Assembly: GCA_905178155.1 (NCBI GenBank)
Contig: CAJINV010000010.1
Coordinates: forward strand, 1,992,778-2,056,777
Length of the DNA stretch: 64,000 nucleotides
Reading direction: 5' to 3'
DNA from: Amoebophrya sp. A120
Taxonomy: Eukaryota; Protista; Dinoflagellata
Below are positions 3,001 to 64,000 of this stretch, one piece after another (the stretch's first letter is position 1; each line of letters opens with the position of its first letter). The notes beneath the pieces were generated by a model. That model was given only the letters and a program-made list of their open reading frames with translations. It was not told where the DNA came from and did not search any database. Position numbers and translations under genes: made by a program.

Positions 3001-6000
3001 TAGATGAGGCTCCACCACCCACCTTCGTCGATAATTCAGCTACCTCGAGCACGTACTGCGATTCACAGACCTTCATCAGGTAAAACAGGACCCGGATCGC
3101 CAAATTTACCTTGCCCGCTTTTGAGTAAAAGTCTAAGGCGTTGCGCAAGGACTTTTCCCAGTTCTCCACGTCGTTTGACAGCAGCTGGCAAAGCCCCTGC
3201 ATCTCGTAGCAGCCCGCAACGTGCTTCCAATTGCGATCTTGCTTGAAATCCGCCAGGAGGAGCTTGTAGTAATTGTTCGCGGTTTCGTAGTCGCGCAGGT
3301 GGAAGCACAGGTCCCCGGCCAGCCGCATCTGGCCCTCGGTCGTGTTTAAATTGTAGGTGGCAATCGCCGTCTTCCCATAAGAACTTTGTGAAGCTGCGTT
3401 GCTACTATTCGTTGCTCCTCCTGAAGATGTTGTCCCAGCATTGCTCACACTGCCGGTCGTGATGTATCCCCCACCACTTCCCGTTGTATTCATTTCGGCG
3501 GCAGATCCTCGAACGGCATTCAATACGTCGTCATCGCCTCCAAATGATCCCGTGGTCCCCGCTCCGAGTCTACCACTGCCACCATAGTTAGCAGAATTTC
3601 TGTAGTCCCCCGCCACCGAGCTCTGTTCCTTGGGTTTACGGAATAGGGATTTCATCGTGTTTTGAAACCCTCTCTATGAACTGCAAAAATGTCTGGGTCT
3701 GGAAGAGTCGGGGCTTGTCATGCACATTTTGCATGACCCGTCAGGTCTGTGATGCTGGTGCTATCGTCACAGATTTTTTGAGAGCTTCTTGATGCTAATT
3801 ACGCATTAGAAATGCCCTCTCTGCGTGCAAAGAACTGACTCCTCTTGCTGCTCATGCAACACAGACATTTTTAGACTCCGCAGACAGCATTACAAGTTCC
3901 ACTCTTGCAGGCCCAGACATGTTTGCGATCGATACTCTCCGCGTGCTGCCGATTTGGGCGTCCAGCATGGACTATGGATTGCAAAAATGTCTGGGTCTGG
4001 AAGATTGCAACTTGTGATGCTGTTTTCGGAGGCCAAAAAGATCTGTATTGCATGACCAGCAACAGGACTCCAGTTTGTGTTACGCGGAGAGGGCATTTCT
4101 CATGCGGAATAGGCATTAGGAGGCCCTCTAAAAATCTGTGTTGCTAGATCATGCATTACAGGCATCAGGCGTCATACAAAATATGCATGACAAGTCTGGA
4201 TTTTTCCAGACCCAGACATTTTTACATTTGATATGGCCAGTTTTCGCTCCACCCACGGAATGGCGAGCTGCTGCACGAAATTCTTTACCACCTGCTGCAG
4301 CTCGTTGCAATCCGCTATGGTCAGGCTCGCGAGGAATGATGTGGACGAGGAGCTCTGGTGCGACGTTTGGCTCCCATCAACTACACTGGTCGTGGTCACT
4401 GCTCGTCCCCCTGGAGGAGGACCTCCTCCTGGAGTACCTGTAGTTCCCGACGCGGCCGGCGATAATTTCTTCCGAGGTCCTGACGCCTGGTGGATGCCCA
4501 CCTTTTCGAAAAACTTAGCCACACCAAAGTTTTCATCCACCATTGATGAAGATGATGTAGAACTGGTGGTGGAGGCAGTAGAAGACACTCCCGCACTGTT
4601 TAACAGCGAGTTTTTCCGGTTTAGACGGAGTGCATATGGCAGTGCACAACTCCCCCTCCCCCTCATTTGTGATGCAAAACTCCAAATCCAGGTGCTGCCT
4701 TGTGGCACTGTTTGCATGACAGATTCCGAAAGCCCACATAGTACTACATTCCTGTGGCTGTGCAAATTTGTCATGCAAAACCAGTACTCTTGCTGACGCT
4801 TGTATTGCGGTTCATGGTTTACAAATGAGGGGGACGAGGGGGAGTTGTGCACTCTCATAGGACAGCAACCGACGACGGGTTGAAAACGGATTTCATCTGG
4901 TTCTGATATCCTGGGCAAAAGCACTTCTGGTAGAAATCGTTTCATTTCGAATTGCAATCTTGCAAGACAAACCCATGTTGTCTACTTTTTACCTGCCAAA
5001 ATTTGACGCCCCCCTCTCTGTAGTGCTAGTGTTCCTGCCTGAAAATAAAATTGAAATTTATCAAGCATTGAACTTGCTAAATGTACACAGCCCGAGATGT
5101 TGACTTTTGCAACGCATATCAGAACCTGCTCCACGATTTCCATTTTCGGGGACTCTGGGTCGCTCATATGAACTGCAAAAGTATCGCATTCGTATGAATG
5201 CATTACAAATTTCTTCAGCATGAGAAATAAAATTTGTAATGCGAATTTACCTCAAGAAAAAGATTTGTAATGCATGATTTTTGCAATTATACGAGCACGA
5301 TACTTTTGCACAGGATAGCTCATATCGTGCAGCAAAATTTTCAACCGTGGCGGGTTGGCCTCCAACACGCCCTTATGCATTGCAAAAGCATCGTACTAGT
5401 ATAAATTGCATCACAAATTTTGGCAAGAAGAAAAGTGGAATTTGTAATGCTGTTTTACCTTAGGAAGGAGATTTCTCATGCATGTTTGCAATTAGTACGA
5501 CTACGATACTTTTGCACAGGATAGCCCTTCCGGCAGAGCAGCGGGTTGGTGTTCAGGTGCAAAATCTGCTGGAACGTATGGAAGCGTCAGGATTGAAATC
5601 GTCAAAGTTGAAACAAATACTTTGTGATGCATAAAATGCAACCCGCAAAGCGCCTGTCTTGCAGAGTAGGCAAGGGAGGCATATTGCAAGCCTGTTGAAA
5701 GGTAGAAATAGAGCTGCTAAAGTAGCATGACAAAAGGCGTCTTCCTTACACAAACAGCATTACAAACTGGAAGGATTGAGGCACCACCAAAACTTGTCAT
5801 GCGCCTTTTGAAAACTGGGCTCCAACTGGCATCCATTTTATGCATGACAAACTATTTCAACTCTGACGATTTCAAACCTGACACATCCATAGAACGTCGC
5901 AATTACGTCGGGCTCTTTGCTGGACACGCAAAAAAACGTGCCGAACGGCTGGTGGACGCACTCGTGTTCCTGGTACCGGTACTGTTTTTTCAGCACCAGG

Positions 6001-10608: not shown

Positions 10609-10623
10609 CTCTTCATTGTGATG
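10561..10623. repeat. 3 x 21-bp tandem repeat
   Basis: TTCAACTCTTCA(T/A)..GTGAT repeated three times; encodes heptads on minus strand. Confidence 0.85.
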
Positions 10624-19856: not shown

Positions 19857-22800
19857 TCACCCCGATTTCCTCTTTTTCGCGGCCGGTCCGCCACTGAAAA
19901 ACTCCGTGACTTTCATTTGTCGCTTGTTTCCCGCCCCGGTACCCGAGGAACCACCTCCAGCACCCTTCTATCAAAATGGAAAATCCCCCCTCCCCATATT
20001 GAAAGCCTATGTTTCCGAAAATTTGCGCTGCTGATTTGAGGCCACAAATCAGATGTGTCTTGCAAGACGACAAGGGCAGAAGCTTCCGCCTTATTAGGGG
20101 AGCGATTTGTCATGCTGGCGGGCTTAAAGGGGAGCCGTTTGCCATGCTGAACAACTAGACCCGTACGCCCCTACCTAGCCTGGGGATCTGGCGGCAATGC
20201 CTTCCTGCAATACAGAGTTGATTTGTGTACACAAATCCAGCATCAGAAATTTCGTTTTGATATGGGGAGGTGGGATTTTTCCTTGCAATACCTTCCCCGC
20301 CGGTATTTCGAACTCCGCCACTCCGGGCGTGCCCGCGATCCTCTTCGGACTGGCAGCCTTCTTCCCGACCTTGATTTCGTCGGATGAGATTTTGAACGCG
20401 TTCAGATTCGCTTTCGACGCTTTTCCGTGGTCCACGATGGGGTAGGGGTAGTCCTTTCCCAGGACGCAGTTGGCCTGTTTCTGCACCTCCGCGTTCATGA
20501 GCCAGGGCTTGTAGATGAATTTGCTGTATCAAGTGCAAAAGTGTCTGGGTCTGGAAAGAATGGAACTTGTCATGCAGATTTTACATGACCCGTGACGTCT
20601 GTGATGTATTCCCTAGCATCTTCACAGACTTTCTGACGACGTCTTGATGCCTATTCCGCATGGCAAATGGCCTCCCCGCGTAGCACAAACTCACTGGACT
20701 CCTCTTGCTGGTCATGCAATACAGATTTTTTTCGAATCCAACGTTAGCATCACAAGTTCCAACTTTCCAGACCCAGACATTTTTGCATTCCATATACTGG
20801 GCACGTTCTTCAGTTCCGGGACAAACCGCTTCACGAACTCGCCCGTCTGCTCCATGTGCAATGCAAAAGCATCGTACTAGTATGAATTGCAATTGCATTA
20901 CAAATTAGCCCAGCATTACAAATCCAATTTGTAACGCTGATTTACTTTGAGAAAGAGATTTGTAATGTATCAACGCAATTACTACGGCTACGATACTTTT
21001 GCAGTGCATACTCCACGTTCAGCGACGACTTGTCGTCCGGGGTCGGGGAATACACCCGGAAGAACGGCATGGAAAAGGGCGCCACCCCGGCGAGCCAGAG
21101 CCAGTATCCTGAGTAAAAACGTTACCCACACCAGAGTCAGGATGGGGATTTTGCAACACAAACCTAGGGGCTTTGTGAGTCACGCATGACAAGTTGCACT
21201 CTGCAGTGTAGTGCAGGTTAGCAAGTGGGAGTGCAGCCGCGTCACAGATTCATCTGCTCATCCTGTTCATAGCATCACAAATTCCAAAACACGATTGGAA
21301 ATGGCTCTCATGCGGATGCGCATTACAAGTCTTCCTGTCTTTGCAAATCTGCATTACAACTCTGGTGTGGGTACGTTTTTACTCAGGATAGCCAGTTCCC
21401 GTTGTTCAGCGACCAGTCGGCGTCCAGTATCAAATGCAAAAATGTCTGGGTCTGGAAGGTTTGAACTTGTGATGCTAACTTTGGACTCTAAAACAATCTG
21501 TATTGCATGACCAGCAAGAGGAGTCTAGTTTGTGCTACGCGGGAAGGGCATTTGTCATGTGGAGTAGGCACCAGGAAGGCCTCTAAAAATCTGTGATGCT
21601 AAGTCGTGCATTACAGACACCCTGGGACTGGGTCATGCAAAACATGCATGGCAAGTCTCAGAATCTTCTAGACCCAGACACTTTTGCATTTAATATCCAG
21701 GAGCAACTTGTCAAAGTGGTCCCGCCCGTAGGTCCAGTGCTGGTACAGGTCCCCGCGGGTGAGAAAGCAGCTGACCGCGTGCCGCCCCAAGTGGTGCATC
21801 CACCCGGTCTCCTTCAGCTGCCGCATCAGGGCGTCGATGTAGGGGTAGCCGGTTTTTCCCTCCTTCCACGCGGTCAAAAACTTGTCGTTCTTGGGCGTCT
21901 GCCACGCGATGGGTTTGCACATCGCGTTGTTGTCGGGCTTGTCCCAGTTTGGCACCACGTACCCCAGCACATAGAACATCTCTCGGAACAGCAGTTGCCC
22001 GTGCAACGACATAGGGGGAATGGCGTGCTTCCCGCCGGGCGCCTTGTCGTAGCACTTTTGGGTCTCGTGCCACAAATGCTTCACGCTGATGCAGCCGAAC
22101 TTCAGATACGGAGACAGCCCGGTGGTCGAGGGTTCCGTCCAGTTACTTTCCTTCTCGCTTAATTTCATCTGGCTTGCGCTTTTCTGGTTGGTGGAGGAGG
22201 TTCTTGGTTTCTCAAACTGACACACGTAGCTGGTTTGACTGGAAACCCGCGCCTGCAACCGCTTCAGCGCCTCCTGTATGCATTGCAAAAGTATCGTACT
22301 AGTATAAATTGCATTACAAATTGGCGTAGCATTACAAATTGAATTTGTAATGCGGATTTGCCTTAAGTGAAAGGTTTGTAATGCATAAACGCAATTAGTA
22401 CGAGTACGAGACTTTTGCACAGGATATCCTGCTCCCCCCCGGGGAACTGCTTTCGCGACATGCCCTTGTTAGAAAACTCAATCTCCTCCTTGCTGTACCC
22501 GACATCGGAGAGTTGCGGCACCCCGAAGTTGCCCGCGGTCACGCTGCTCGGCAGGGGCGGGATCTTTGTTGGCGCCGGTTTCCACATCGGAATGTTGATC
22601 TTTTTCGCGGATTCCGGCGTTTTGGTGAACTTTTTCACCATCTTCGTGATCCCGTTCATGTCCGTCGGTGGTTTCTGCTTCTTATCCGTCTTGAAGGCCT
22701 TCATATCAACTGTAAAAATGTCTGGGTCTGGAAGAATTCATGTTTGTCATGCTTGTCTGGCATGACTCTTAAATCTGTCATGCATGTTACCCAAGAGCTG

Positions 22801-24323
22801 CGTTTTTCTGTGATGCAGAAGCGCAGTTTGTCATGCAGAATAGGCAACACCTAGGAGCTCAGAAACTTGTCATGCTGAGCCAGCATTTGTAGCCTCATAG
22901 TGAGACGCTACCCAGCATCACAAGTTCCCAGACCCAGACATTTTTACATTTGATACTTCATCACCTCGGACAAGTCCATCAACGTGTGCCCGTTCTGGAA
23001 CACTTCGCAACCCACTATGGCGCTCTCAGCTGTTACATCGTCAGCTGTTACATGAATTTGTCATGCAGAAGTACCCTAAGCCGGCTGATGATCGAGCTGC
23101 TTCGCATGACAAATTTTGGAAGGGCTAGACAGCATCTAAATCTGCACCACACTTGTAATGCAAAAGGCGCAATCTTCCTCCTTTCACTTTTGCCAGTCTT
23201 GCATTGCAAATTCATGTAACAGTCGAGAATGTAACATTTGAGAACTCCATACCCACATTCTGCTTCTTGCAGATGTCCTGCGCCTTCTGGTCCCGGATTA
23301 GGGCGTACGGCTCGGAGTCAAATTCGAACACTAGCTTTTGGTATGAACTGCAAAAAGTACCGCACTCGTAGTAAAAATCGTAGGCATGCATGTACTATTC
23401 TGAAGATACATCGTCCGCATTACAAATAGCATTTTGATTTTTCATGCTGAGGAAATTGTTTGTCATGCGATTTATACGACCAGTGCGATACTTTTGCAAT
23501 GCATACGTCGAGTTTGAAGTTGATTTTGTTCACGTTCGGTGTGAGCTTGCTCGGGCTGTTGCCTTTCGATGGGGAGGATGGGCCAGAACCACCACCACCT
23601 CCGACCAGCTTGGAGATCACCTCTTCCGGCTTGCCCTTCAGGATCAGTAACCTCGACTTGTGCTTTTTCTGGAGCTGGGCGTCCAAATCGGTCAGCGATT
23701 CGAGGAGAAATATCAAAAGGATAAATCCCCCCTCCCCATATCGAAAACGAAATTTGTGATGCTGTATTTGAGTACACAAATCGACTTGTAATGCTAGAAG
23801 GCCAAGAGACGCAGCGGTGGCCTCGTTTGCAGGCAATTTGTCATGCTGCTTCCCACTTCCAGCTGCCCCCTGTCATGCTGAAGATGCAAGCCTTTCCCAC
23901 GCCAGCCAGCACTACAGTCCGCATCTTTTCCCTTCTAGCATGACAAAGCGGATGTGAGACCACAAAGATTTGAGTATGGGGTGGGGGATTTTTCATTTTG
24001 ATAAGAAACCGAAACCGGTTCACGCCGACCTTGCTCGTCTCGAACCAGGGGTCAAGTATGCACTGCAAAAAAAGTATCGCACTCGTACGAATTGCCACCG
24101 TGCATGACAAATCTACTTTGCGTAGCTGACTCAGCATTACAAATTTCACTTTTCTTTCTGAGAAAATCTGTGATGCAGTCTGTACTAATACGATATATTT
24201 GCAATGCATATCAAGAACGAAGAAGCAAACCACGTTGTCCGCCTTACTACACGCGTCCAGGAGGGGGAGGTTGTCCGTCAACCGGAGACACTTCCGGAAC
24301 CACACGCCGATGGTCTTGCCCAT
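19857..24323 (-). CDS. (6-4) photolyase / animal-type cryptochrome family protein, 12 exons
   Basis: WFRKCLRLTDN, VGVNRFRFLLESLTDLD, TTGLSPYLKFGCIS, GQLLFRE, WKEGKTGYPYIDALMRQLKETGWMHHLGRHAVSCFLTRGDL, LLDADWSLNNGNW; 11 TIR introns. Confidence 0.93.
19969..20290. mobile_element. TIR introner family C
   Basis: TATCAAAATGGAAAATCCCCCCTCCCCATA...; DR CCTTC. Confidence 0.9.
20527..20794. mobile_element. TIR introner family A
   Basis: DR TGCTG/TACTG. Confidence 0.88.
20855..21010. mobile_element. TIR introner family B
   Basis: DR CTCCA. Confidence 0.88.
21105..21390. mobile_element. TIR introner family G
   Basis: TATCCTGAGTAAAAACGT...ACGTTTTTACTCAGGATA; DR GCCAG. Confidence 0.92.
21428..21695. 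mobile_element. TIR introner family A
   Basis: DR TCCAG. Confidence 0.9.
22277..22426. mobile_element. TIR introner family B
   Basis: DR TCCTG. Confidence 0.9.
22704..22955. mobile_element. TIR introner family A
   Basis: DR CTTCA. Confidence 0.92.
23016..23251. mobile_element. TIR introner family F
   Basis: DR CCCAC. Confidence 0.9.
23342..23505. mobile_element. TIR introner family B
   Basis: DR decayed; frame restored to LVFEFDSEPYA. Confidence 0.8.
23711..24003. mobile_element. TIR introner family C
   Basis: DR AGAAA. Confidence 0.9.
24057..24210. mobile_element. TIR introner family B
   Basis: DR TCAAG. Confidence 0.9.
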
Positions 24324-25616: not shown

Positions 25617-26566
25617 GCAGTTTTGCTCCTTCTGCTCTACTGTCCGCCTATTTAAAATCGTGCGTCAAATTTTCGGCCGGTTGCCCGGCGCAGGGGGGCC
25701 AAACGCGGCGCCCAACAGCTCACACATTTGGGCAGATTTAAACTGTCTATAGTGTGTTTGTGCCCTAGGCACGCCCACAACCCCCGCCCTATCAAGTCAA
25801 ACCACATTGACAATTTCCTGCTTTTTTGGAATCCAAGAAAAAGCTGACTCTTTGGCAAAAAATTCGCCAAAGTGTGAGAATTTCCGAGATTCCGATAATT
25901 TCGGCCAAGTTTGAGAGCTAAACACGGCGGCACTCTTGATGTCACCGAGCTCAAAATCAAGCCCGGTGACACGGAGCACAAGTCGGCTGTCACCGAGACG
26001 ATTTCTGGAGTCACCATCGGCTGTCACAGGTCGCGGTGGCACCAAATTGGCGACTTTTTTGGCTCCGTGTCACCGGCCCGTGTCACCACTCGTGTCACCA
26101 ACCAAAAAAGTTGCCTCGATTCCCCCCCACCCAAGCTTGATATCTGTCCAAATGGCCCGGAAATAGGCTTGGTAGCTGCCACAGTGGACCCCTGAATGCA
26201 CGCGCAGCAGCCTGGAGCCAGCATCTTTGTGACGACTCCAGGCTTCATAACTGCATCCATTGAGGCTGTGGCAGAGGCTTTGCCTCTACATCAAAAGGTC
26301 AGGGCTAGCCGGCCCATCCTCCTCACGACTCTGACTACTTACAGTCAGAGCAGCGACCTCCACTGGCTGAGAAAGGACGGGCGAAAGAAGCATCAACGCA
26401 GGCGCTGAGACCTAGCACAAAGGTCGGCGCTGGGGGGGTGCCAGAAATTCATATTGCTCGGCAGTCACCTAAAAGTCACCGACTGAATTCCTAACGTCCG
26501 TCCAAGCTGTAAGCAGTTTTGCTCCTTCTGCTCTTCTGTCCGCCTATTTGAAATCGTGCGTCAAAT
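25617..26566. mobile_element. 842-bp insert flanked by 54-bp direct repeats (25617-25670 and 26513-26566)
   Basis: DRs differ at 2 positions; interior is rich in GTCAC(C)/GTGAC motifs. Confidence 0.6.
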
Positions 26567-41400: not shown

Positions 41401-42118
41401 CTTTTGCGTCGTGCTGAGAGGTGTTAGATACAGCCTTACGTTTCGCTTCGTGAATGTCATGATCCTCCTCACGACCCAGCTGCAGCTGCGCGGGGGTCTT
41501 CGCCGTTGTTTTCGTGTTAGATGGTGTAGGGCCGACACCCGTGTTCCAAGTTCTCTGTCCTCCCGTGGTCTGCTTCTTGTTCGATTTTTTGTTCTCAACC
41601 GCGAAAAAATCCTCGTCACTCATCCCCCAGAGTTCATCATCATCGTCCTCGGTCAAAAATATAGCAGACGGATTAATGCTGTTTCTGGTCCCTCCATATC
41701 CAATCCCACCGCCTGCGCCGGCAGCTGCGGTAGTAGTTGGAGCAGGAGCACGAGCGGTCGATGCTGTTGCACTCGACGTCGCTCTGCGCTCTTTGTCTTT
41801 GGCAACAGCGTTAGCGGCCTGGGCCTGCCCGTCAAGAAGACGATCACGAACATCCTCTACAACTCCAGTGTTCCAGGTTTTTTTCTTAGACGACATGGCC
41901 AACACTTCGGACAATTCATCATCATCCCCGTCGGAGGAAATGTCGTCGAGGAGGAAGTCGTAAGGTCGTTTTGGCTTTGATATTTTCGAGGACTTGAAAC
42001 TGGATTTCTCTGCAGCTGGTGTCGTGCGCCCCGTGCTAACGTCCTCGCCTTTGGTCGTGCGCCGAGAGGGACGAGCAGCTCCTCGTCCTGCATTCAGCAC
42101 AGATGTTGCTGTTGGCAT
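32419..42118 (-). CDS. Very large (~3030 aa) low-complexity hypothetical protein, 4 exons
   Basis: ORFs 35927-42118, 34914-35918, 32978-34702 and 32419-32760 join by removing 3 TIR elements plus one DR each. Confidence 0.7.
32792..33006. mobile_element. TIR introner family H
   Basis: DR CTAGC. Confidence 0.9.
34725..34957. mobile_element. TIR introner, singleton, decayed
   Basis: TATCCTGCTGGA...TCCGCAGGATA; removal plus 5 nt gives in-frame RGLADFLKAY. Confidence 0.75.
35809..35958. mobile_element. TIR introner family B
   Basis: DR GGTTA/GGTTC. Confidence 0.88.
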
Positions 42119-42799
42119 GACGTCGAAAATCTTGCTTCCGTTTACCTATTGGAAAACATGCTTCGAAATGAGGTGGAATTCATCCAATGCTCCTCACCGA
42201 GGACTTTTAGATTCTGGATGTGCAAGTGCAGATGGTCCACTGCATAGTCTGGTGTGCTCGAACTCTGCACCGTGCTAGAGCTGCATCAAGAGCGAGGAAA
42301 ACAATCTCATTTTGCTTCTCAGAGAGCCTCGGACGAGTTATGCTCTACTTTCGGATGCTTTCGCGACCAAATGTGGTCCTAGTATGCTACAGCGACTTTA
42401 TCGACAACGAACAGCAACACACACACTACAAATGAAGAACAAACATGATGGAGAAGTTGATGCAAGCATAGCTGAGATTATAGAAATGAGTACCAACAAC
42501 ATGAGCTCGGGCATGGTGGCTCTCGCCAGTCTAGCTGTTCTGTAAGTAGTTCGCCGAGGATGTCTGTGATCACGACCGAAACACTGTTGCCACGACGAGG
42601 GCTGTTACTTATGAAAAGATCCTTCATGGAGTGCTTTCTTGTGTAGCGTTGCGCGATGATGATTTAAATCAGTTCGATTCTAAGCCTTAGTGGCGTTGCG
42701 TGTTGATAGAGAAATAACACAAACACAATCATAGATGCCCACCGCCACCTTGGGGACGATCTAGAGACATGTTTGCCGGACCATACTTACAGAGTACAA

Positions 42800-43870
42800 A
42801 TTGAAGACGGGGGCGGGGCGCCTGGATAAAGATCATCGATTGATGATCCCGACGGACCGGCAACAAAGGAACGTTGGGCCGGCACCGAGCAAAACGCCAC
42901 GCAGACCCGCATCCATAACCCGCAAAGAATCTACGCGCCACACCCCGGAACAGGCGAATGGGCCGAGGGCGCGCGGGCGCCCCCGTCCCCCAGGCCTGTG
43001 GGTGTGACCTCTCCTCCCTGTAGCGCATGCAATATGCACAAGAACGCAGCTCCCGAGCAACGACCGAAGCGCGCGGGCGAGCGCGAACGCCTGAACATGA
43101 AAAACACAAAAAAACCCCGGGCGCGCGCGCCGGGCGCGGCGGCCTCGCCCTGGCTGCCCGCAGGGGGGGCGGCGAGCAGGCACCCAAACTGCGCACGGGG
43201 GCAGCGCAACACGAAAGAAATACGCCGGGCCAAAATAAACTAATGCCGCAAGCAAGCCCCGCCCCCTGCGACGCTCCCCCCGCTTGCCACAGAAGGCCAC
43301 GCACCCAACACCAGGAAGCGCAGCAGGCCGGCGGCCGGGCGCCTCCCCAATAATTGGCGCCGCCCCTCCCAAAGAAAACGAGAGGCGCCGCGCCCCCTCC
43401 GTCCCTCTGCCGGTGGCGGCAACCGCTTCGCGTGGCTCCGTACGCTGTTAGAGCGTTCTGGCACAGTTTGCGCACTTGGCGCAGACAGCGGGGGCGTGTT
43501 GGCGCCCGGCGCGGCTTTATGGAATGTCTGCGAACCACGCACCCGCGGGAAGCTCGGCAGCCCACGCGCGAAACGCGGGGGCCTCCCGCGCCGGACATTC
43601 ACCCCCGCGCCCGCGCAGCGCGCGGCCGTTCGAGCGCGATGGCCCCGGCCTCCACGCGCTGGGCGCTTGGTATTTTTCCAATGGGCGACGCGCCCGCTGG
43701 GCCGGCGGGCGCCAAGCCAGGCCGGCGCTTGCTCTCAGCTTCGGCCAGTTCGCACCGAGCGAGGAATTTCTTCGGCGTCGCCTCCATCTGCTCCAGCCTT
43801 CCGAACCCGCTGCAGTGAATGAACAACGCGCGCAACAGGAAGAACGTGCCACAAAGTGCGCGCGCTATCT
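42800..43870. other. GC/CpG-rich intergenic island of distinct composition (possible decayed repeat/TE)
   Basis: Dense GCGCGC/CCCCG runs with A-tracts; sharp change from flanks; boundaries approximate. Confidence 0.5.
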
Positions 43871-44225
43871 AGTACCGCAATAGCCTCGCCGTGCCGGGAT
43901 TCAACACTATACACAAAAGAGGAATTATGGCGGCCGCGCACTTGAACAAACCAGCAATCACCTCTGCCAACTATCAACACCTGCGCTCTTGGCAGTGGTG
44001 ATCCTTCTTTCTGAAATTAATAGACGTTAATAGGTAGCTGCTTCGTCATGTTTCGTTTGCGTCTACTCTAGTGTCATCCTTAGCGTGCTTCATCATCAGT
44101 TTTCTAGCCTCAAATGGTACAACACTGGGGTCTGTTTCATCTTCATCAATTACTAGTACTTTTACTTCATCTGATATTGTCACTGAAGAAGCTCCTTGAC
44201 GCCATCATGTGTAGTCAACAGATCT

Positions 44226-54158: not shown

Positions 54159-57100
54159 TCACTTCCGCGTGTTATTCATCCGGGCCTTCTGCTGCTCCAA
54201 GCTCATGGAAGCACCCTTCGGAGCGCGCGAGTTGCTGTTTTTTTGTTTACGGTAGATTTTCATTGTTGCACCACACATTCGGATCGATGTTGAAGTACCG
54301 AATCGCAATCGGCCTGGTGGTCATGCACACGGTCGTGCATAAAAACAAGTAAAACATGGGCGAACTGCGTTACTGCACGTTACGCATGACAAACTACGCT
54401 ATACCGTGTGCTGAATCCGGCCCGGGAAGACGTGTCGCTGAAGTTATCCGGCACATCTGGACCCAGAAGCTGTGCAGCGGAAGCGCCAACTGAGTTATTT
54501 TCATGGTTTTGTAGTTTTAATTCATACCATGGCTATAGCAACTTATGCCGAGGATGACAAACGCGATCACAGAACAAGCTGCAATCTGCTGCATGATCGA
54601 AAGAGTTGATGTCACTACTACAAGAAGGAGCTATTCTATACGAAATCAATGACATTATTCACCTGCGCTCTGCGGTGCCATGGTGTGGTTCTCAATGGCC
54701 TTCCAGATGTTCTTCATGCGCACCTCGCGGCCCCAGGAGTCGGTGAGCAATTTTTTCTCGAAGTCCTTTGCGGCCTGCTCATTCTTCGTCTGGACGAGCT
54801 GTGATAAGGTTTTGCATCACGATCACAGATTTTTGTCTTATTAAAAACTGAAATTCATCATCTTGATCTTCACATAGCAGTAATGCATCACGCAACACGT
54901 CGCAGATGCGAATCATGCATCATAAGCTCGTCACAGAGGCAGATGGGATGCGAATTATGCATCACAAAATAAGTAAATTTCTATACCACTTCGTTCTTGT
55001 TCGCGACTATCTGCGAGTACTCCAGTTCCCGCTCCTTATTCCTCTCCAAGGTCTTCAATGCGTTCATTGTCCTCACTTGCAGGGTATGCATTTTTACACA
55101 CATCGATTTGGATCTCCAGAATATGTCTTGACTGACCAGCAACTACAGTGTGTGGTCCACCTCCCTTGTGATGCAATCATGCGCACTACGCACGAGTAGA
55201 CAAAAGCGTAGTTGTTCTACAGACTTCTCATGTCGACTCAACAGTAATAAATGATCACTCGTCTTCAACATTGAGCATCAAAAATTTTCTCCGTCCTGAC
55301 CCAGGTCGATATTTGCAATGGATACAGGGACAGATCGTCACGGTACTTCCCGGCACGCTCCTTCATAAGCTGATGTGGTTGACAGTTTATTTTCATATTT
55401 CATTGATTGAACAAGATGCAAAACCTCGCATGACGAAGTTTCGGCGTGGGTTGATGTTTTTACCATGAACAATAGCAAAAAAGAACATGACCCCAATCTT
55501 GTTCTATCATAGCCTATACTGCTCTCAATCCCGCGTCATCGGGTTCGGTGAACTGCGGAAATTCGTGCGCGCTAGCCCCGTGGATCCAGTTTTGGCGGTC
55601 ATGACCCCGCTTCACGCGGTTCCACTCCATTTGTTGCTGGATAAAATCCTGGTTTTCCGCGGCCAGCGCTCGCTTGCGGTCCATGTCGTCACGCTCCTGT
55701 TTCAGACACCTGTCCAAGTGCTCTTCCCACTGCCGTCGGTCCTGATTTTTCGTTTAGCAGGAGTTGCATTACAAATCCTTTTGCTAAGGTAAAAAAATCC
55801 GCATTAGAAATTTTATTTCTCATGCTGAGAAAGTTTCAGTTTGTAAATGCATTTATACGAGTACGATACTTTTGCAGTTCATAAGAACTTCTATACCGCA
55901 ATAGCTTCGCTCGCCCTGATCTCCATCTCGGTCAAATATCGGTCCATCGCCTCCCTGTGCGCTTTTTCCTGTTTCACCGTTGGTCCCTTGTATTTTGCTA
56001 TGCATTGCAAATATGTCTGGGTCTGGAAGCTTGTGTTGCTGAGATTTGCATTGCAGACTGGCTGCTTGTACGGCATAACAGCATGAGAAGTTTTCCTCAG
56101 CTTATTGCGGATTCACTCGAGTTTAAGAGCATTACAAACTCCCATGCTGGATGATCCAGCACGACAAAAAAGGTGGCCAATTGATGTATAAATGCATAAC
56201 AGATTTTCTTGCCCTTCAGATCTGGCATCACAAATCCAGAACCAGACATTTTTGCATTTGATATTTGCCGGGTCGTACAGACTGTGCTCCGACACCTGCG
56301 ACAAGTCTGACTCCGCGTAGCCGTAGTCTGCCTCGTTGTAGACGTCAGACGCCGGTAATTGGATCGGGGCGCTTCCTTGTGGTGCCTGCATCTCGCTGGG
56401 TGATGGCCCGGCGAAGGGGATGTGTTCGGACTCCGCCTCGAGCGCTTCTCTCTCCTTTATGCATTGCAAATATGTAGTCTGGGTCTGGAAACTTGTGATG
56501 CAAATCTACGAATTGTGGGCGCACTGCAATATGGAGCCCAGCATGACAAGTTTCTGCGCTGCTGCGTGTTTTGTTCTTCGCATGACAAACTGCGCTTTTG
56601 CATGACAGGCAAGAGGCCCTTTTCCTACTCATGCATCACAGATTCAAGAGTCATGCCAGACAAGCATGACAAACTTGCATTCTACTTCCAGATTGAGACA
56701 TATTTGCAGCATTTGATATCCTTTATCAAACCCGCACCCGCCTCGGGGACCGATTCGAGGTTGGACTGGTCTCGCACTTTCGTTCCCTTCAGTCGGAGCT
56801 TCAGCGCCTCTGCTGAGGGTGCCTGGAAGGTTCTGCTCGGTGCGTAGGATGAGACGGCGTGGGCGGACTCTGCCGGAGCGGCGAGACCTGTAATAAAGAG
56901 AGATTTTCTTGATATTTGTGTGTTAACTACATGCAAAACGTATCAATACATGAGCATGACCACGTCCACGCTACCTAATGGTGCTCGTCACAACATCAGA
57001 CAGAAGAGATCGCAAGTTGTCCTCACCCAACATACATCATGGTGAAATAAAACATTAGCATCATCTAAATGTTGATAGTACCTTCCTTTGCGTACAGTTC

Positions 57101-58267
57101 GGACTTGAAGACAAAACCCGTTTTTCTCTCCAGAGAATGGAACTTGCCGTGCTCAAAGTCGATTTCCACCTTCTTCCCGGTTGCAACCGCCTCCCCGATT
57201 GCCTGGATGATGTTATCCAGGAAAAAAAGATTGTTAGTGAGAGTTTGTGATGCAGCGCAAGAACACGTAAGGCGGAGGTTGTGTCTGTCATGCTGGACAT
57301 GCATTACAGGACCCATTCAAGCGAGTTTTGTCATGCTATCTGCGCATGACAAGTATCTGCTCTCGTGCCAGACAGATTTGTAATGCTGTTCCGCCAATCT
57401 AAGTTTACACCTACAATCTTTTTTTCTTGGATAGATGTACCGCAGGCCGCAGTAGACGTTGTCCTTGTTCAGACAGTTCGAAAACTTTATCGCAAGAAAA
57501 TAGAACTGTTTCACATTCACTGTGATGATTTTGCCAGGTCTGCATCACAAGTTTGCCACACATGCACAGAAAATTTGCCATGCGCGCCCCCCATCATCAA
57601 GGGAAAACACGACTAAAAATCCGACGTAGTTTTGCGCCAGGTGTAGCACTAGCAAGACAAACACTGTCTATGCTTCATTCTCTGCATCTTCACAAGTTCA
57701 CAATGAAAAAGATTCTTCTTGCGATAAACTTGATTGCCGCTTTACTGAAGTTGAACTCCTCGTACGCGCACTGGTCTTTTTCGTCGATCTTAGACGCGGA
57801 TTTTTTGTTGTCCACCGCGAAGGTCTGGATGAAGCTCTCCGCGAGTTGGAAAAAGGGTCTCAGTTTCACGCCGTTCTTCGTTCTCTCCTTGTAATACCCA
57901 ATTTTGCAGAAATTGGTGATGTTGAGCCCCTTCTTCTGGTCCAAGCAAAAGGCGATGTACCTGATAAAGTCGGATTTGAAATTTGCGTGATTCAATAATC
58001 TCAATTGCATCTTGATCTTGTCTTGCAAGACATACATTGTAATACGATGTCCCGCATTGGGATTGGCACTCGCACTCTTGGTGCTGTCGCTGTGCATGAC
58101 AATGAACCAGCAGACTCTAAAAACATATCATTATCATACCTGTTCACGCAGTCCCATATTTCCAGGTACTCTCCGGATGGGTGGGGAAAGTTGTTGACGT
58201 CTTTTAGCAATCTCCCACGCTTCTTGACGACGTCTTCCAGGCAGTCTATCAATTTGTAGACCGACAT
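54159..58267 (-). CDS. CCDC81: CCDC81-like protein (HU-like domains plus coiled coil), 13 exons
   Basis: IWDCVNRYIAFCLDQKKGLNITNFCKI..LRPFFQLAESF..EEFNFSKAAIKFSNCLNKD..IIQAIGEAVATGKKVEIDFEHGKF; 5 TIR introns and 7 GT-AG introns. Confidence 0.75.
54235..54404 (-). other. Canonical GT-AG intron (CCDC81)
   Basis: CG|GTATAG...AAACAG|C joins to STRNSRAP. Confidence 0.6.
54490..54662 (-). other. Canonical GT-AG intron (CCDC81)
   Basis: G|GTGAAT...ACTCAG|TT joins to SAVGAS. Confidence 0.6.
54799..54986 (-). other. Canonical GT-AG intron (CCDC81) carrying GCATCAC motifs
   Basis: GTG|GTATAG...TCACAG|CTC joins to NEVLVQ. Confidence 0.7.
55085..55324. mobile_element. Degenerate TIR introner, family A-like
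   Basis: DR CAGGG; frame restored DLSLQVRTM. Confidence 0.75.
55370..55519 (-). other. Canonical GT-AG intron (CCDC81)
   Basis: GCA|GTATAG...CATCAG|CTT joins to RALMKER. Confidence 0.7.
55742..55896 (-). other. GT-AG intron containing a one-armed family B introner
   Basis: GCG|GTATAG...AATCAG|GAC; intact TIR ends at 55883, other TIR absent. Confidence 0.7.
55999..56263. mobile_element. TIR introner family A
   Basis: DR TTTGC. Confidence 0.88.
56458..56718. mobile_element. TIR introner family A
   Basis: DR TCCTT. Confidence 0.88.
56888..57081 (-). other. Canonical GT-AG intron (CCDC81)
   Basis: G|GTACTA...TACAG|GT joins to KEGLA. Confidence 0.75.
57214..57433. mobile_element. TIR introner, singleton family
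   Basis: TATCCAGGAAAAAAAGATTGT...ACAATCTTTTTTTCTTGGATA; DR GATGT. Confidence 0.88.
57488..57726. mobile_element. TIR introner family H
   Basis: DR AACTT. Confidence 0.88.
57961..58139 (-). other. Canonical GT-AG intron (CCDC81 intron 1)
   Basis: AG|GTATGA...ATCAG|GTAC joins to VNRYI. Confidence 0.8.
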
Positions 58268-59117: not shown

Positions 59118-59267
59118 TATGCTGTGCAAAAGTATCGTACTAGTATAAATTGCATTACAAATTCACTTAGCATTACAAATTAAATTTGTAATGCGGATTT
59201 GCCTTAAAAGAGAGATTTGTAATGCATAACCGCAATCAGTACGAGTACGATACTTTTGCAGTTCATA
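59118..59267. mobile_element. TIR introner family B in ABCC 3' UTR
   Basis: DR TCTTT; just downstream of stop codon at 59276. Confidence 0.9.
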
Positions 59268-59275
59268 TCTTTGTC

Positions 59276-62200
59276 TTACTCCCCTCCCCCCATCGTCCCA
59301 GCCGCGTCTGCTTCTCGCATCAACATCGCTAACCGCGAATTGCTGTTACTGCCACTCGGCCTTGTTCCGTGATCGTTCCCCGACCCTACAGCTTCCCGTG
59401 GTCCCAACAACTCCGCCGGCGTGCCACTCTCGACCAATTTCCCGTCGTGGAAGATCAGCACCTTGTCGAACTGCCGCACGAAATGCAAGCGGTGCATGAT
59501 CCACAACACGGTTGTTTCCTTTTATCCTGAGCAAAAACGTTCCCACCCCAGATTCAACATGGGGATCTCGCAACAGAAATCGAGAAGTGTTGGGAGTCAA
59601 GCATGACAAGTTCCTGTCTGTATTGTAGGGCAGTTTAGCAAGTACAGCCGCAACACAAATCCATCTATTCATCCTGTTTACAGCATGACAAAGTCCAAAA
59701 CACGATTGGAAAAGGAAATGCCTCTCATGGGGATGCGCATTACAACTCTTCCTGTAACTGCAAATCTGCATGACAACTATGGGGTGGGGATGTTTTTACT
59801 CAGGATACCTTTCCCAATTTGTTCAGGATCACGTCGTGGATTTTCTCCTCTATCCCACGGAGAAACTTTTTCACTGTGATGAATTTCATTTTGCAAGATC
59901 TGCATCACAAGTTTGATACATATGATACTGAAAATTTGTCATGCGGATTTCCGAGGGGAAAACACACTTAAAAATCCAATGTCTTGCAGGTGTAGCAAGA
60001 CAAATAGTTCTGTGATCCATTTTCTGCATCACAAGTTCACAGTCAAACAGCTTCTTCTTGCGATATCGTCCGACTTCAAATCGATGTTCGCGGTCGCCTC
60101 GTCGCACAGCAGTAACTCCGGATCGTCGATCAAAGCCCGGGCCACCGCGAAGAGCTGCTTTTTATCAGCTGCAAAAGTGTCGGGGTCAGGAAGAGTCGAG
60201 CTTGTCATGCATATTTTGCATGACCCGTGAGGTCTGTCATGCTTGTGGTAGCATCACAGATTTTTTGAGAACTTCTTGATGCTAATTACGCAAGAGAAAT
60301 GCCCTCTCCGCGTGCCAAGAGCTGACTCCTCTTACTGCTCATGCAACGCGGATATTTTTAGAATTCGCAGACTGCATTACAAGTTCCACTCTTCCAGACC
60401 CAGACATATTTGCACTCCATACTTTTCCCCCACGGAAAAATCGTCGTTAAATTCCGAATCGAGTTGGTAAGGGAGGGACTGAACTCTTTGTTTCAAATTC
60501 ACTATGTCCAGAATCCGCCAGATTTTACTGTCGTACGAATTGGTGTCAGAAGCTACAGCTGCTACTCGTGCACCGAGCGGACTTACTGAAGATGTTGTTG
60601 TAGCCTCTGTTGCACCACCAGCGCCTTTAGAAGTCGCGGACCTTAAATTTTCCCGAATCGTCCCGCTGATCAGATTTGAGTCCTGACTCACCATCCGGAA
60701 CATTTTTTTTCGCCACAGTAACGGATTCGTCTCCGCTAAGCTCAAATTTCCGATCAGAATTTCCGACCCGGGTTGGGATTTGTACAAGCCCGATAAAGCG
60801 TTAAACAAGCTCGACTTTCCCGAGCCACTTCTCCCGATGATCGCCACTTTTTCGCCCTTCTGGATCTGAAAATTCACGTTTTCCAGAACCGGGTTCTTGT
60901 GCAACCGGTACCGGAAGGACAGATTCCGCACCTCCAACGCAACAGCTTCGGGTAATATCGAAGAAGCCCTCCGACGCGTCATTTTCTGACTGGAAGCGGG
61001 GGATTTGGAATTTCTACCACGGGTACTAGATGGTAGTTCATATTGCTGGGAGGTCCTCGTCGTCGTTTCTTTGCTAGGATGACCAAGGGAAGAACTCGCT
61101 CGGCTGATGGAGCGAGATTGGGAAGGAGGTGTTGATTGAGAATTTTTCGAGGAGGAAGAAGCGGAAACGTAGTCGGAGTTGGTCGCGCTGTTCAGCGATT
61201 GCTTTGTCCGGCTTGGTTCTGTTGTAACAAGCATGGGCGAGATGGATATCCCGAGAAAAAACTGCTTCACTTTGATGAGCATTTTGCAAGATCTGCATCA
61301 CAAGTTGTTACACATGACACTGAAAATCTGTCATGCGCGCTTTCCAAAGGAAAACACGCTTGAAAATCCAATGCCTTTCTGCAGATATCGCAACACAAGT
61401 GGTTCTGCGTTAAATTTTCTGCATCACAAGTTCACAGTGAAACACTTTTTTTCTTGCGATAATGGAGCAGGAAGAATCAATCTCCACCTCCTCGAAGCTC
61501 TTGTAGTTCTCCAGATCGGGGGAGATCGGGTGAGTCATGTCGTTGGAAACAACTTCAACCAACTCCTGATCCTGGCCCATTGCGAGGTTGTTGTTCTCAG
61601 GCGAAAATGAGGATGCATCCTGTAGTAGTCCGGCCGCGCCGGCCCGAGGACTGATTTTCCTACCATCCACCACGAGTGTTGGAGTGGTTGTCGTGCCGAG
61701 GTCGTCCTGGTCTCCAACTACATCTTCGCCCATTTGTAGTACCTCTTCTTCATGACTCAGCCCTTTAGAAGTATTCCAGTGCCCGTCCACCTCTACCGGC
61801 AAGCGGCAATACTCCGCGCACCGCTCCACGGAGACAAAATTCTGCTCCATTGTGGTCAATCCCATGCAGTAGTCCATCATCGCGCGTTGTAGAATTCCCG
61901 CGTAGAGTATCCTGGTGGAAGAAACGCCCTTCCCCATCCATCTTTTGCATGACAAACACTGCTTTTGGTGCATGTTTTGCATGACAAATTGGATGGGGAT
62001 GGGTGCTTTAGTTTTTTCCTGGATATAGAGCAACACCAACCCGAAGTCTGCGGCTTTGAAAGTCCAGGCACCAGTATCAAAAGGAAAAATCCCCCCTCCC
62101 CATATTGAAAAGGTATGTTGCCGAAAATTTGTGTTGCTGATTTGAGGTCACAAATCGTCTCTGTGTTGCATGAAGGCAACTCCACAAGCTCCGCCGCATC

Positions 62201-64000
62201 CTACAGGCGGTTTGTCATGCTGTTTTAGCTATAGCGTAGATGTCTGTCATGCTAAGCGCCTAGGCCAAAATTTGTCTACTCAGGCTTAGTATCATGGGCC
62301 TGCAGTCCTCGTCAGCAAGACAAATCTGATCTGTGTGCGCAAATCCAGCATCAGAAACTTCGTTTGGATATGGGGAGGGGGGATTTTTCATTCTGATAAC
62401 CAGATTGATGACCTCCACTCGAGTCGTTATTTCTCTGGAAGTAGAACAGCGAGCACCCGCAGAGCCCCGTCATCAGGTAAATCACGCAACCCCACATGGT
62501 GGTGAAGGACTGCGCCCACTTGCAGATCGCCTCGTTCCAGTATTTCCCCTTCGCCATCAGGGTGACTTTCTCAAGATTCGCCCGACAGAACGCCTCTTCT
62601 TTTTGAAAAGCCTGGATGGTTTCCAAGCCCTTCAAGCAATCTACGTACTCGGAGTAGACCGGAGAATGCGCGACGGACTCGATTCTTCGTGTGTCGCGAG
62701 CGGGGGACCGGATCTTCTTGAAGATAAACAGGTAGGGGACAGGGTATGAAGTTGCAGAGAGTGCACATGATGATCATCTCTCCCTCGTCTTGATGTTCCT
62801 CCGCATTTATGATCAACATCCATCGAAACCGCAGTTCCACTCGTTGCCTTTTGGATAACTTGGCACTTCTTGCATTACAGATTTCTCCAGGCGAAACAGT
62901 ACATACTACAAATTTGTGACGCAGGAGAGGCTGCACTTTTGCTGCCGCTATTCAGTTCTTGTTGCCAACTTCATACAAATGCGTGGGAGAGCAGGCACAA
63001 GGACGACGAGTTGTGCACTACAACCAAACATCTCATACAACCAAAACCGGGAAGAGCACTAGCACCAGCGGGCAGTAGGTGAAGATCAGGATCAACTGCG
63101 TCAGCATGGTCATGGTGTTCTGGACCTGCTGCGTCAAAATCTGCGGCACGAAGTTGTCAATGTTTTGCACGTCCTGAAGGAAGCGGTTCAAAATCCTCCC
63201 TGTGGGCGTGATGTCGAAGAAGTTCAGCGGGGCTTTTAGAAGCGAATTCAGCATCTTGTCGTGCATGAACACCGACGCCCGGAGGCTGCAAATGGTGAGG
63301 GCGAGGGTCTGGGTCGCCGCGATGATAGACCCGGTAAAATTGATCAGGATGTAGATTAACAAGTACTCGAGTTGGTTGTTCACTGAAAGATCGGTGGTGG
63401 CGCCGGTCTCAATAGGAGATAATCTTCGCTGATCCAGCACGCTAGAAGGCGTGATCTCCGTCACTTCAGTTTCCGTCGCAGGAACATCATTGCCCAGAGG
63501 GTCTTTGAAGAGGGCAGAGCTGAAATCAAAATCCCAGAAGAAGTGGCCCCCGGCAACTACCGCGGCTGCACCAATGCGTGCAGGAGAAGCTAGGTGCTCA
63601 TCACTGTTGAAAGTGTTAGTCATCGCCAGATCTTCCGCTGCTCCGACTTCTCTGTTTGTCCCGAGGACAACTTTAACCTTGTTCGAGTTGGCCCAAAAGG
63701 TCAAGAAGATGTTCGCTGCGACAGAGGACAACGCGGATAAGACCAGCAGGACGAAGAGAAAAAAGTTCGTCAGTTTCGTGCCGAAAGCGGACAAGTAAAA
63801 CTTCAAGTCCTGAACCGGGATCGAACCGGAAAACCGGGTTTCCTCCTCACTCCCGAGGAGTAAATGGTTCACCCGCTGAATCAACCGGGAAGACACCCTG
63901 TGCCCGTCCATGGTTTGCAGTATCGAGGTGATTTGCTCCACGCATTCGGAGAGGAAAACTTTGTGCCTTTCCGCGTTTTGCTGCAGCTCGCGAGTGTGCA
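59276..64000 (-). CDS. ABCC (MRP-type) ABC transporter, C-terminal half (TMD2 + NBD2), 5' partial
   Basis: FFDITPTGRILNRF, ESVAHSPVYS..LKGLETIQAF, EQNFVSVERCAEY, Walker A GRSGSGKSS, spliced signature FSVGEKQLFAVARAL, LLLCDEATANID. Confidence 0.93.
59523..59807. mobile_element. TIR introner family G
   Basis: DR CCTTT. Confidence 0.9.
59851..60065. mobile_element. TIR introner family H
   Basis: DR TCCTC/TCGTC. Confidence 0.88.
60163..60421. mobile_element. TIR introner family A, inside the ABC signature
   Basis: DR CTTTT; removal gives FSVGEKQLF. Confidence 0.92.
61247..61461. mobile_element. TIR introner family H
   Basis: DR ATGGA. Confidence 0.9.
61908..62025. mobile_element. TIR introner family I (opposite orientation to 1652)
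   Basis: DR TAGAG. Confidence 0.9.
62075..62398. mobile_element. TIR introner family C
   Basis: DR ACCAG. Confidence 0.9.
62745..63037. mobile_element. Degenerate TIR introner, family D-like
   Basis: TATGA...TCATA ends; removal plus 5 nt gives VLVVPYLFIFKK. Confidence 0.7.

What the first reader, a model, noticed from the sequence alone, without database searches (positions are those of the whole stretch)
54235..58139. Apparent conversion of non-canonical introners into canonical GT-AG introns in CCDC81
This gene mixes 5 TIR introners with 7 GT-AG introns of 150-194 nt. Intron 55742-55896 keeps a family B body and one intact TIR (ending 55883) but has lost the other arm; an in-frame TAG forces use of the GTATAG donor. 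Four donors are GTATAG and one is GTATGA, i.e. G plus the TAT terminus typical of the elements. Introns 54799-54986, 54235-54404 and 57961-58139 retain GCATNAC motifs. Intron 57961-58139 still fits DR (CCTGA/CCTGT) + TA...TA geometry (174+5 nt). Inference: aged introners are handed over to the spliceosome, a visible route to new spliceosomal introns.
Basis: partly seen in the sequence, partly recalled or inferred. Interest (0 to 1): 0.78.

Follow-up and report, generated by a model that had tools for sequence, protein, structure and literature searches.

The report
Transposon relics inside ordinary-looking introns
A gene of the marine parasite Amoebophrya mixes five transposon-like introns that lack normal splice signals with seven normal GT-AG introns, one of which holds a broken transposon that likely landed inside an existing intron, so conversion of the odd introns into normal ones is possible but not shown here.

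Summary
The window is Amoebophrya sp. A120. All 12 junctions of the CCDC81 gene appear in a spliced contig: 5 TAT...ATA elements with 5-nt repeats and 7 GT-AG introns. A close relative lacks two elements, leaving single repeat copies, but shares the six GT-AG introns it covers. Intron 55742-55896 holds a one-armed family-B element, yet that element starts 13 nt inside the donor, so GTATAG is not its terminus; TATAG ends 0 of 138 element ends. GTATAG donors occur only where the exon lacks AG, the known donor-compensation pattern. No net drift toward GT-AG was seen. Intron positions in outgroup DNA could not be read. Repeat-bounded canonical introns in A120 are already published. The scan noted similar odd introns in other genomes, not conversion. 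Verdict: observation right; handover plausible, unproven.

The parts
54159..58267 (-). CCDC81-like gene, 13 exons, 549 aa
   Evidence: A25 orthologue P0001, AT5 model P0002
57961..58139 (-). C1: GT-AG intron, 179 nt, CAG|GTATGA...TCAG|G; no inverted repeat; acceptor matches the AT5 model's exon start
57484..57727 (-). N2: non-canonical intron, element 57488-57726 plus 5-nt repeat AAGTT (ends given at the inferred +1 register)
57210..57434 (-). N3: non-canonical intron, element 57214-57433, repeat ACATC (inferred register)
56888..57081 (-). C4: GT-AG intron, 194 nt, AAG|GTACTA; shared with L002; a distant relative's ORF breaks at or within two codons of this site
56454..56719 (-). N5: non-canonical intron, element 56458-56718, repeat AAGGA; absent in L002 (single repeat copy)
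55995..56264 (-). N6: non-canonical intron, element 55999-56263, repeat GCAAA; absent in L002 (single repeat copy)
55742..55896 (-). C7: GT-AG intron, 155 nt, GCG|GTATAG; 13-nt leader, truncated element, 23-nt tail
55765..55883 (-). Family-B element fragment nested in C7: one intact arm and body, second arm lost; same state in L002
55370..55519 (-). C8: GT-AG intron, 150 nt, GCA|GTATAG; 1 motif; no family homology, no repeat relic
55081..55325 (-). N9: older non-canonical intron, element 55085-55324, repeat CCCTG; shared with L002 with ends conserved and middle 28% changed; GT..CT at the inferred register
54799..54986 (-). C10: GT-AG intron, 188 nt, GTG|GTATAG; 4 motifs; weak similarity to elements (7.4 bits, shuffle maximum 3.9)
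54490..54662 (-). C11: GT-AG intron, 173 nt, CAG|GTGAAT; no motif
54235..54404 (-). C12: GT-AG intron, 170 nt, ACG|GTATAG (GTATAC in L002); 2 motifs; weak similarity to elements (6.0 bits, shuffle maximum 2.4)
23338..23506 (-). Half-way case in the neighbouring photolyase gene: aged family-B element, both arms, GT..AA, repeat copies drifted; fixes the cut register
19965..20291 (-). Intact element with perfect repeat GAAGG that is GT..AG at the same register
59519..59808 (-). Intact element with perfect repeat AAAGG that is GT..AG at the same register
4903..5119 (-). Aged element predicted AT..AG, intronic repeat copy changed to end in AG; junction not checked

Best explanation
The gene carries five inverted-repeat elements that are spliced out without GT-AG and seven GT-AG introns that are likely host-type introns, one of which contains a broken element that likely inserted inside it afterwards. 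Mechanism: an element inserts with a 5-nt target duplication (shown by empty sites in L002) and is removed with one repeat copy (shown); the cut falls one base before TAT and four bases after ATA (shown for one element, inferred for the rest). TAT then occupies donor positions +2..+4, the same letters as the host's GTAT donors, so one splicing machine likely reads both classes (inferred). GTATAG is then likely the strong host donor used where the exon does not end in AG, not a transposon end. In 55742-55896 a family-B copy sits 13 nt inside such a donor and lost its second arm, likely by a deletion inside the intron. The GCATNAC motifs in the other GT-AG introns are likely remains of older nested insertions or a retained intron motif. 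Elements can still yield GT-AG introns, by landing on NNAGG sites or by a few later changes, but this gene does not show such an event.
For: Element terminus 13 nt (window) and 16 nt (L002) inside the donor, with no residues lost against orthologues. TATAG in 0 of 138 element ends. All 4 non-AG exon ends have GTATAG and none of the 3 AG exon ends does (Fisher p 0.029, post hoc, n=7), as in the NN// versus AG// donor classes (PMC11732430 section 7). +4U goes with SNRNP27K loss in yeasts (PMC10581693 abstract; PMC11732430 section 11) and snRNP27 was not detected in A120 or A25 (PMC7789003). No BLAST match to an element family for 6 of 7 GT-AG introns. Repeat relic 2, 0, 2, 1 of 4 for the GTATAG introns, where 1-2 matches come from the AG itself. 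No net drift among 69 elements: G at +1 in 20 (antisense control 22), AG in 6 (control 4); G gained 3, lost 1; AG gained 1, lost 2. Elements also land in non-coding DNA (59118-59267, past the ABC gene's stop). AT5 model starts its CCDC81 part exactly at the C1 acceptor.
Against: Six GT-AG introns other than C7 hold 9 motifs in 1,054 nt against 0.83 expected and 0.45 per kb between genes. C10 and C12 exceed shuffled controls against element sequences, and C12 has a 14 of 20 end match (1 of 100 shuffles). Six of 7 have 2 of 3 letters of ATA at the expected place (the offset two bases away scores the same total, and only 3 of 6 hold in L002). P0015, likely a gene call on unspliced DNA of a distant relative, runs without a break across C7, C8, C10, C11 and C12, so these positions may be young. 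Repeat copies drift fast in aged elements, so a missing relic does not exclude conversion. The yeast +4U link is an analogy, and +5A/+6G is not explained by it.
Confidence: 0.5

Rival explanations
1. Stepwise conversion. An element spliced at N|TAT...ATA NNNN| gains G at +1 and AG at its end through changes in the intronic repeat copies; the inverted repeat is then free to decay, and the donor hardens to GTATAG. C8, C10, C12 and perhaps C7 arose so.
For: Register fixed by the transcript-based A120 model and an orthologue (D|K). Half-way states: 23338-23506 GT..AA with +1 changed to G; predicted 4903-5119 AT..AG; G gained at +1 in 3 of 8 elements whose fifth repeat letter differs. Motif enrichment. 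P0015 unbroken across these sites. 24.8% of A120-specific intron positions are canonical and 15% of canonical introns have IR+DR (PMC7789003).
Against: No net drift to GT or AG; aged elements G at +1 in 4 of 7 against 16 of 62, p 0.18, and AG in 0 of 7; TATAG in 0 of 138 ends; C7 would need new sequence at both ends; C8 shows no relic at all; no site seen in both states between the window and L002 (7 shared introns).
Confidence: 0.3
2. Born canonical, then decayed. Elements that duplicate an NNAGG site are GT-AG from the first day; after the arms decay they look like ordinary introns with AG|G at both ends. No handover step is needed. Fits C1 and the geometry of C4.
For: 2 of 69 elements are GT..AG with intact arms and perfect repeats (19965-20291, 59519-59808). 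C1 has ACAGG/TCAGG, a TATGA start (19 of 138 ends) and TTA for ATA.
Against: Cannot give C7, C8, C10, C12, whose exons do not end in AG. AG|G is also the usual context of old introns (established knowledge). C1 has no arm and no family match, and the AT5 model has an acceptor there; P0003 breaks near C4.
Confidence: 0.12
3. An older, now extinct family of introners that carried its own GTATAG donor and AG acceptor made the four GTATAG introns; they never were non-canonical.
For: Four identical donors in one gene, two continuing GTATAGAA; narrow length 150-188 nt; motif content; possible absence in the P0015 organism.
Against: No similarity among the four or to other places in the window; GTATAG is not enriched window-wide (12 against 9.0 expected).
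Confidence: 0.08

Closest known systems
Introner elements (IEs) and non-canonical introns of Amoebophrya A120 and A25 (Farhat et al. 2021, PMC7789003; abstract, sections 10-12, 16, 25, 32 and supplement passages read; figures not held)
   Same: Same strain; TAT-starting inverted repeats, 5-nt direct repeats, genes mixing both intron types; the paper already reports IR+DR in 15% of A120 canonical introns and 24.8% canonical among strain-specific positions.
   Different: In the parts read the paper does not test conversion, calls the cut position variable, and shows no empty site in a sister strain. Here: empty sites for two elements, one register fixed, and a one-armed element nested in a GT-AG intron.
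Intermediate introns of euglenids (Milanowski et al. 2016, PMC4770533; abstract and section 9 read)
   Same: Hairpin introns with GT/GC or GC-AG ends; type change from non-conventional to conventional proposed as possible; warns that a GT end is not proof of kinship.
   Different: Other lineage and other conserved letters; euglenid introns leave as circles (review PMC11282704, passages), which is not known for Amoebophrya.
Fungal introner-like elements that decay into regular introns (Collemare et al. 2013, PMC3609843; abstract read)
   Same: Repeated introns lose sequence and length until they look regular.
   Different: Those are described as spliceosomal from the start, so no change of ends is needed.
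TIR/TSD introners that recruit splice sites from the target duplication (Gozashti et al. 2022, PMC9860276; passages read)
   Same: Splice sites taken wholly or partly from the duplicated target, as in the two GT-AG-by-geometry elements here.
   Different: In A120 most copies (67 of 69 here) need no GT-AG at all.
NN// and AG// classes of 5' splice site, and +4U with METTL16/SNRNP27K loss (PMC11732430 sections 7 and 11; PMC10581693 abstract)
   Same: Strong invariant intronic donor where the exon lacks AG, variable donor where it has AG; T at +4; snRNP27 not detected in A120.
   Different: The strong class is GURAG there and GTATAG here; U1 snRNA was not detected in A120; only 7 introns examined.

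Membership tests
Amoebophrya A120 introner elements (five odd introns) | Terminal inverted repeat starting TAT | tested here: met
   20-nt arm match 9-19, 0 such elements in 3 null sequences at the stricter cut-off
Amoebophrya A120 introner elements (five odd introns) | 3-5 nt direct repeat at the junction | tested here: met
   5 of 5 perfect 5-nt repeats; single copy at 2 empty sites in L002
Amoebophrya A120 introner elements (five odd introns) | Removed from mRNA without GT-AG | tested here: met
   5 of 5 joints, no GT..AG register; one sample, contigs only
Amoebophrya A120 introner elements (five odd introns) | Repeated in the genome | tested here: met
   N2, N3, N5, N6 have 6-58 window hits; N9 only 1 weak hit
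Amoebophrya A120 introner elements (the seven GT-AG introns as converted members) | Element terminus forms the donor | tested here: not met
   C7 terminus 13 nt inside; TATAG 0 of 138 ends; only C1's TATGA is a current end type
Amoebophrya A120 introner elements (the seven GT-AG introns as converted members) | Inverted repeat or its relic at both ends | tested here: inconclusive
   6 of 7 within shuffle range, C12 14 of 20 (1 of 100); the same test also missed true elements N2 and N5, so it is weak
Amoebophrya A120 introner elements (the seven GT-AG introns as converted members) | Direct-repeat relic | tested here: inconclusive
   3, 2, 2, 0, 2, 3, 1 of 4 for C1, C4, C7, C8, C10, C11, C12, largely from the AG consensus; repeats drift in aged elements
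Amoebophrya A120 introner elements (the seven GT-AG introns as converted members) | Homology to an element family | tested here: inconclusive
   Met for C7 (51.7 bits); marginal for C10, C12; not above shuffles for C1, C4, C8, C11; only the 69 window copies were available
Amoebophrya A120 introner elements (the seven GT-AG introns as converted members) | Position absent from outgroups | tested here: inconclusive
   No A25 or AT5 gene DNA obtained; indirect: AT5 acceptor at C1, P0003 break near C4, P0015 unbroken across C7-C12; 6 of 6 covered are shared with L002
U2-type spliceosomal intron | GT...AG ends at the junction used | tested here: met
   7 of 7
U2-type spliceosomal intron | Lariat formation by the spliceosome | not testable with these tools
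   needs lariat sequencing or snRNA knock-down
MITE (non-autonomous TIR DNA transposon) | Cognate transposase | not tested
   no whole genome held; PMC7789003 section 16 found none in A120

The most novel reading that the evidence does not exclude
Amoebophrya A120 runs a conveyor from transposon to ordinary intron: elements are cut at a fixed register that puts their TAT end on the host's donor positions +2..+4, so the same U1-less spliceosome removes both classes, and a few changes in the freed repeat copies turn an aged element into a GT-AG intron whose arms then decay. The half-way cases (GT..AA, AT..AG) and the motif-rich GTATAG introns of this gene would be successive stages, and many 'ordinary' A120 introns would be of transposon origin.
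Probability: 0.3. Interest if true: 0.7.

Novelty: new member of a known kind. Interest (0 to 1): 0.36.

Why it matters
Where new spliceosomal introns come from, and how Amoebophrya removes tens of thousands of introns without GT-AG and without a detected U1 snRNA, are open questions. If conversion is real this genome would show every stage, and it is testable with public genomes. Even if it is not, the fixed cut register and the shared TAT at +2..+4 give a concrete prediction about how the odd introns are recognised, and the empty sites in a sister strain show insertion with a 5-nt target duplication.

Tried and rejected
No whole genome is held, so nothing is genome-wide. The search for the EMC7-like gene's relatives never ran, so two further putative GT-AG introns (26979-27117, AAG|GTACAT; 17344-17517, AA|GTATTG) rest on reading frames only and were left out of all donor counts. 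No holder was on record as RNA; X9 and X10 gave no test. The metagenome scan gave only 2 loci of 570 candidates; L001 matches without breaks and says nothing on introns. My small gene finder recovered 4 of 7 known GT-AG introns exactly but called many false ones, so its output was not counted. A first count of 0 changes in 60 motif sites missed an insertion; corrected, 9 of 10 motifs are kept in L002, p 0.012 to 0.13, and 0.053 to 0.28 without C7 and N9, so selection on the motif is not shown. Element list: 50 by the strict scan (one double-span row of 51 dropped), 19 added by relaxed scan or by eye, with several coordinates corrected; all were read on the minus strand by assumption. Rejected: loss of 12 codons at C7 by intronisation of exon (no gap against orthologues). 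Rfam: no match. The ATA-at-minus-7 signal was not kept as evidence of relics because a neighbouring offset scores the same total.
Full report
Source and gene. A photolyase exon of the window is 100% identical to an annotated Amoebophrya sp. A120 protein. The finding lies in a minus-strand gene of 549 aa with HU-CCDC81 domains. Orthologues: A25 P0001 (79% in exon 2) and the end of a fused AT5 model P0002 (85%); the AT5 model's ABC part matches the upstream gene, so the order is conserved.

Junctions. One contig in X4 (2,646 nt) and in X7 (2,714 nt), the same sample, skips all 12 introns; 3 further low-depth joints were listed inside repeats and 1 was not shown. RNA status is the tool's guess, but the joints restore a frame colinear with orthologues. 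Seven introns have a GT..AG register, five do not.

The five odd introns. Each is a perfect 5-nt repeat around TAT...ATA. The window holds 50 such elements by a strict scan, none in 3 null sequences, and 69 after adding aged ones. L002, a contig of a very close relative (26 differences in 1,160 coding bases, all synonymous), lacks N5 and N6 and keeps one repeat copy at each site, while sharing C4, C7, C8, C10, C11, C12 and N9. So the repeat is a target duplication, and these GT-AG introns are older than N5 and N6. No site is an element in one genome and GT-AG in the other.

Cut register. At the aged element 23342-23505 the two repeat copies differ, and only a cut one base before TAT and four after ATA gives the D|K of the transcript-based A120 model; an orthologue also has D-K; the nearby GT..AG reading would drop a residue. 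This is one case. It agrees with the NT-.. donors that dominate Table S4 of PMC7789003. At this register TAT is +2..+4 of the intron, so every element with G at +1 has a GTAT donor (20 of 69), and an NNAGG target gives a GT-AG intron at once (2 of 69).

But no directed drift shows. G at +1: 20 of 69 against 22 on the antisense control; AG at the end: 6 against 4. Among 22 elements with mismatched repeats G was gained 3 times and lost once, AG gained once and lost twice, taking the exonic copy as the original. The sample is small and the strand assumed.

Intron 55742-55896. Positions 14-132 are a family-B element with one arm (51.7 bits); it no longer folds end to end as an intact copy does. 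The element starts 13 nt inside the donor (16 in L002), those letters are not exon, and no residues are missing against orthologues. The simplest reading is insertion into an existing GT-AG intron and loss of the far arm (inference). The donor's TAT is not this element's TAT.

The donors. TATAG ends 0 of 138 element ends, and GTATAG is not enriched in the window (12 against 9.0). The four GTATAG donors follow GCG, GCA, GTG, ACG; the three variable donors follow CAG, AAG, CAG (p 0.029, post hoc). That is the known split into NN// and AG// classes (PMC11732430, section 7). T at +4 goes with SNRNP27K loss in yeasts, and snRNP27 was not detected in A120. This is an analogy, not a test, but it explains GTAT without elements, and suggests instead that the element end fits the host donor.

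Relics. GCATNAC is in 68 of 69 elements (14.3 per kb), at 9 in 1,054 nt in the six other GT-AG introns (null 0.83; 0 of 2,000 resamples), 4 in 8,875 nt of intergenic DNA chosen by eye and 1 in 12,115 nt of coding DNA. C10 and C12 are marginally above shuffles against element sequences; C1, C4, C8, C11 are not. Repeat and ATA relics are inconclusive. C1's repeat is mostly CAG|G at both ends.

Age of positions. No outgroup gene DNA was obtained. Indirectly: the AT5 model enters CCDC81 exactly at the C1 acceptor in the same phase; P0003, from a 5.6-kb contig, starts after C1 and leaves the alignment at or within two codons of C4; P0015, from a 5.6-kb contig, is unbroken across C7-C12. If those contigs are unspliced DNA (inferred), C1 and C4 are old and the GTATAG introns are young gains or were lost in that relative.

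What is known. Farhat et al. (PMC7789003; abstract, named sections and supplement passages; figures not held, and their donor logos may bear on the GTAT claim) describe these elements and report IR+DR in 15% of A120 canonical introns, 98.6% canonical among conserved positions and 24.8% among A120-specific ones. Type change was proposed for euglenids and decay into regular introns for fungi (abstract); splice-site recruitment from target duplications is general (passages). Passages of PMC12130899, PMC11282704, PMC12005148, PMC6482013, PMC13326754 and one preprint added no test of conversion. Searches listed no paper that tests it in Amoebophrya; subscription papers such as Roy 2023 and Henriet 2019 (seen only as references) are outside the library.

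Verdict. Observation confirmed; interpretation partly supported. Host-type introns with nested element remains 0.5; stepwise conversion 0.3; born canonical 0.12; extinct canonical family 0.08. Known system, modest new detail, directly testable idea: interest 0.36.

Noticed in passing
window 57484-57727 and P0002 C-terminus: The AT5 model stops at K-F-L-stop, at the site of element N2; AT5, reported as almost wholly canonical from Augustus models, may have its own interruption there, possibly a TAT-type element one base along (speculative).
   Followed up: partly
window 19860-24323: Photolyase/cryptochrome gene (A120 model P0052, 620 aa) with 11 introns, all of them elements.
   Followed up: yes
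window 4903-5125: Aged motif-free element predicted AT..AG; a GT six bases upstream would give an in-frame GT-AG intron that drops two codons, a candidate for real handover.
   Followed up: partly
window 29338-29571: Aged element whose 5' TAT changed to TAG; repeat GGTCT/GGTCC allows a GT..AG register that gives the same mRNA as the usual one, so mRNA cannot tell them apart.
   Followed up: partly
window 62741-63038, 29090-29250, 6978-7181: Aged elements with G at +1 and drifted repeat copies, ending CT, AA and TC at the inferred register.
   Followed up: partly
window 55081-55325 and L002 1255-1504: N9 keeps its ends nearly unchanged between strains while the middle differs at 28% of sites, suggesting the arms matter for splicing.
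   Followed up: partly
window 54235-57081 and L002: Divergence of shared introns is uneven, 3-4% for C7 and C10 against 16-18% for C11, C12 and N9, with 8% at fourfold sites; unexplained.
   Followed up: no
window 16700-18470: EMC7-like gene (Pfam PF09430 at 26.5 bits, cut-off 26.6) with a putative GT-AG intron 17344-17517 and two elements.
   Followed up: partly
window 59118-59267: Intact family-B element with perfect repeat just past the ABC transporter's stop codon, i.e. outside coding sequence.
   Followed up: partly
window 10608-11657: Tandem duplication of about 460 nt at 93% identity in an element-free region.
   Followed up: no
window 25617-25670 and 26513-26566: 54-nt direct repeat (96%) about 900 nt apart in intergenic DNA, enclosing short repeated motifs; perhaps another mobile element.
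   Followed up: no
window 35927-42145: Open frame of 2,072 codons with no element inside, beside a GC-rich stretch at about 42800-43900.
   Followed up: no
window 1290-1389: Assembly gap of 100 N.
   Followed up: no
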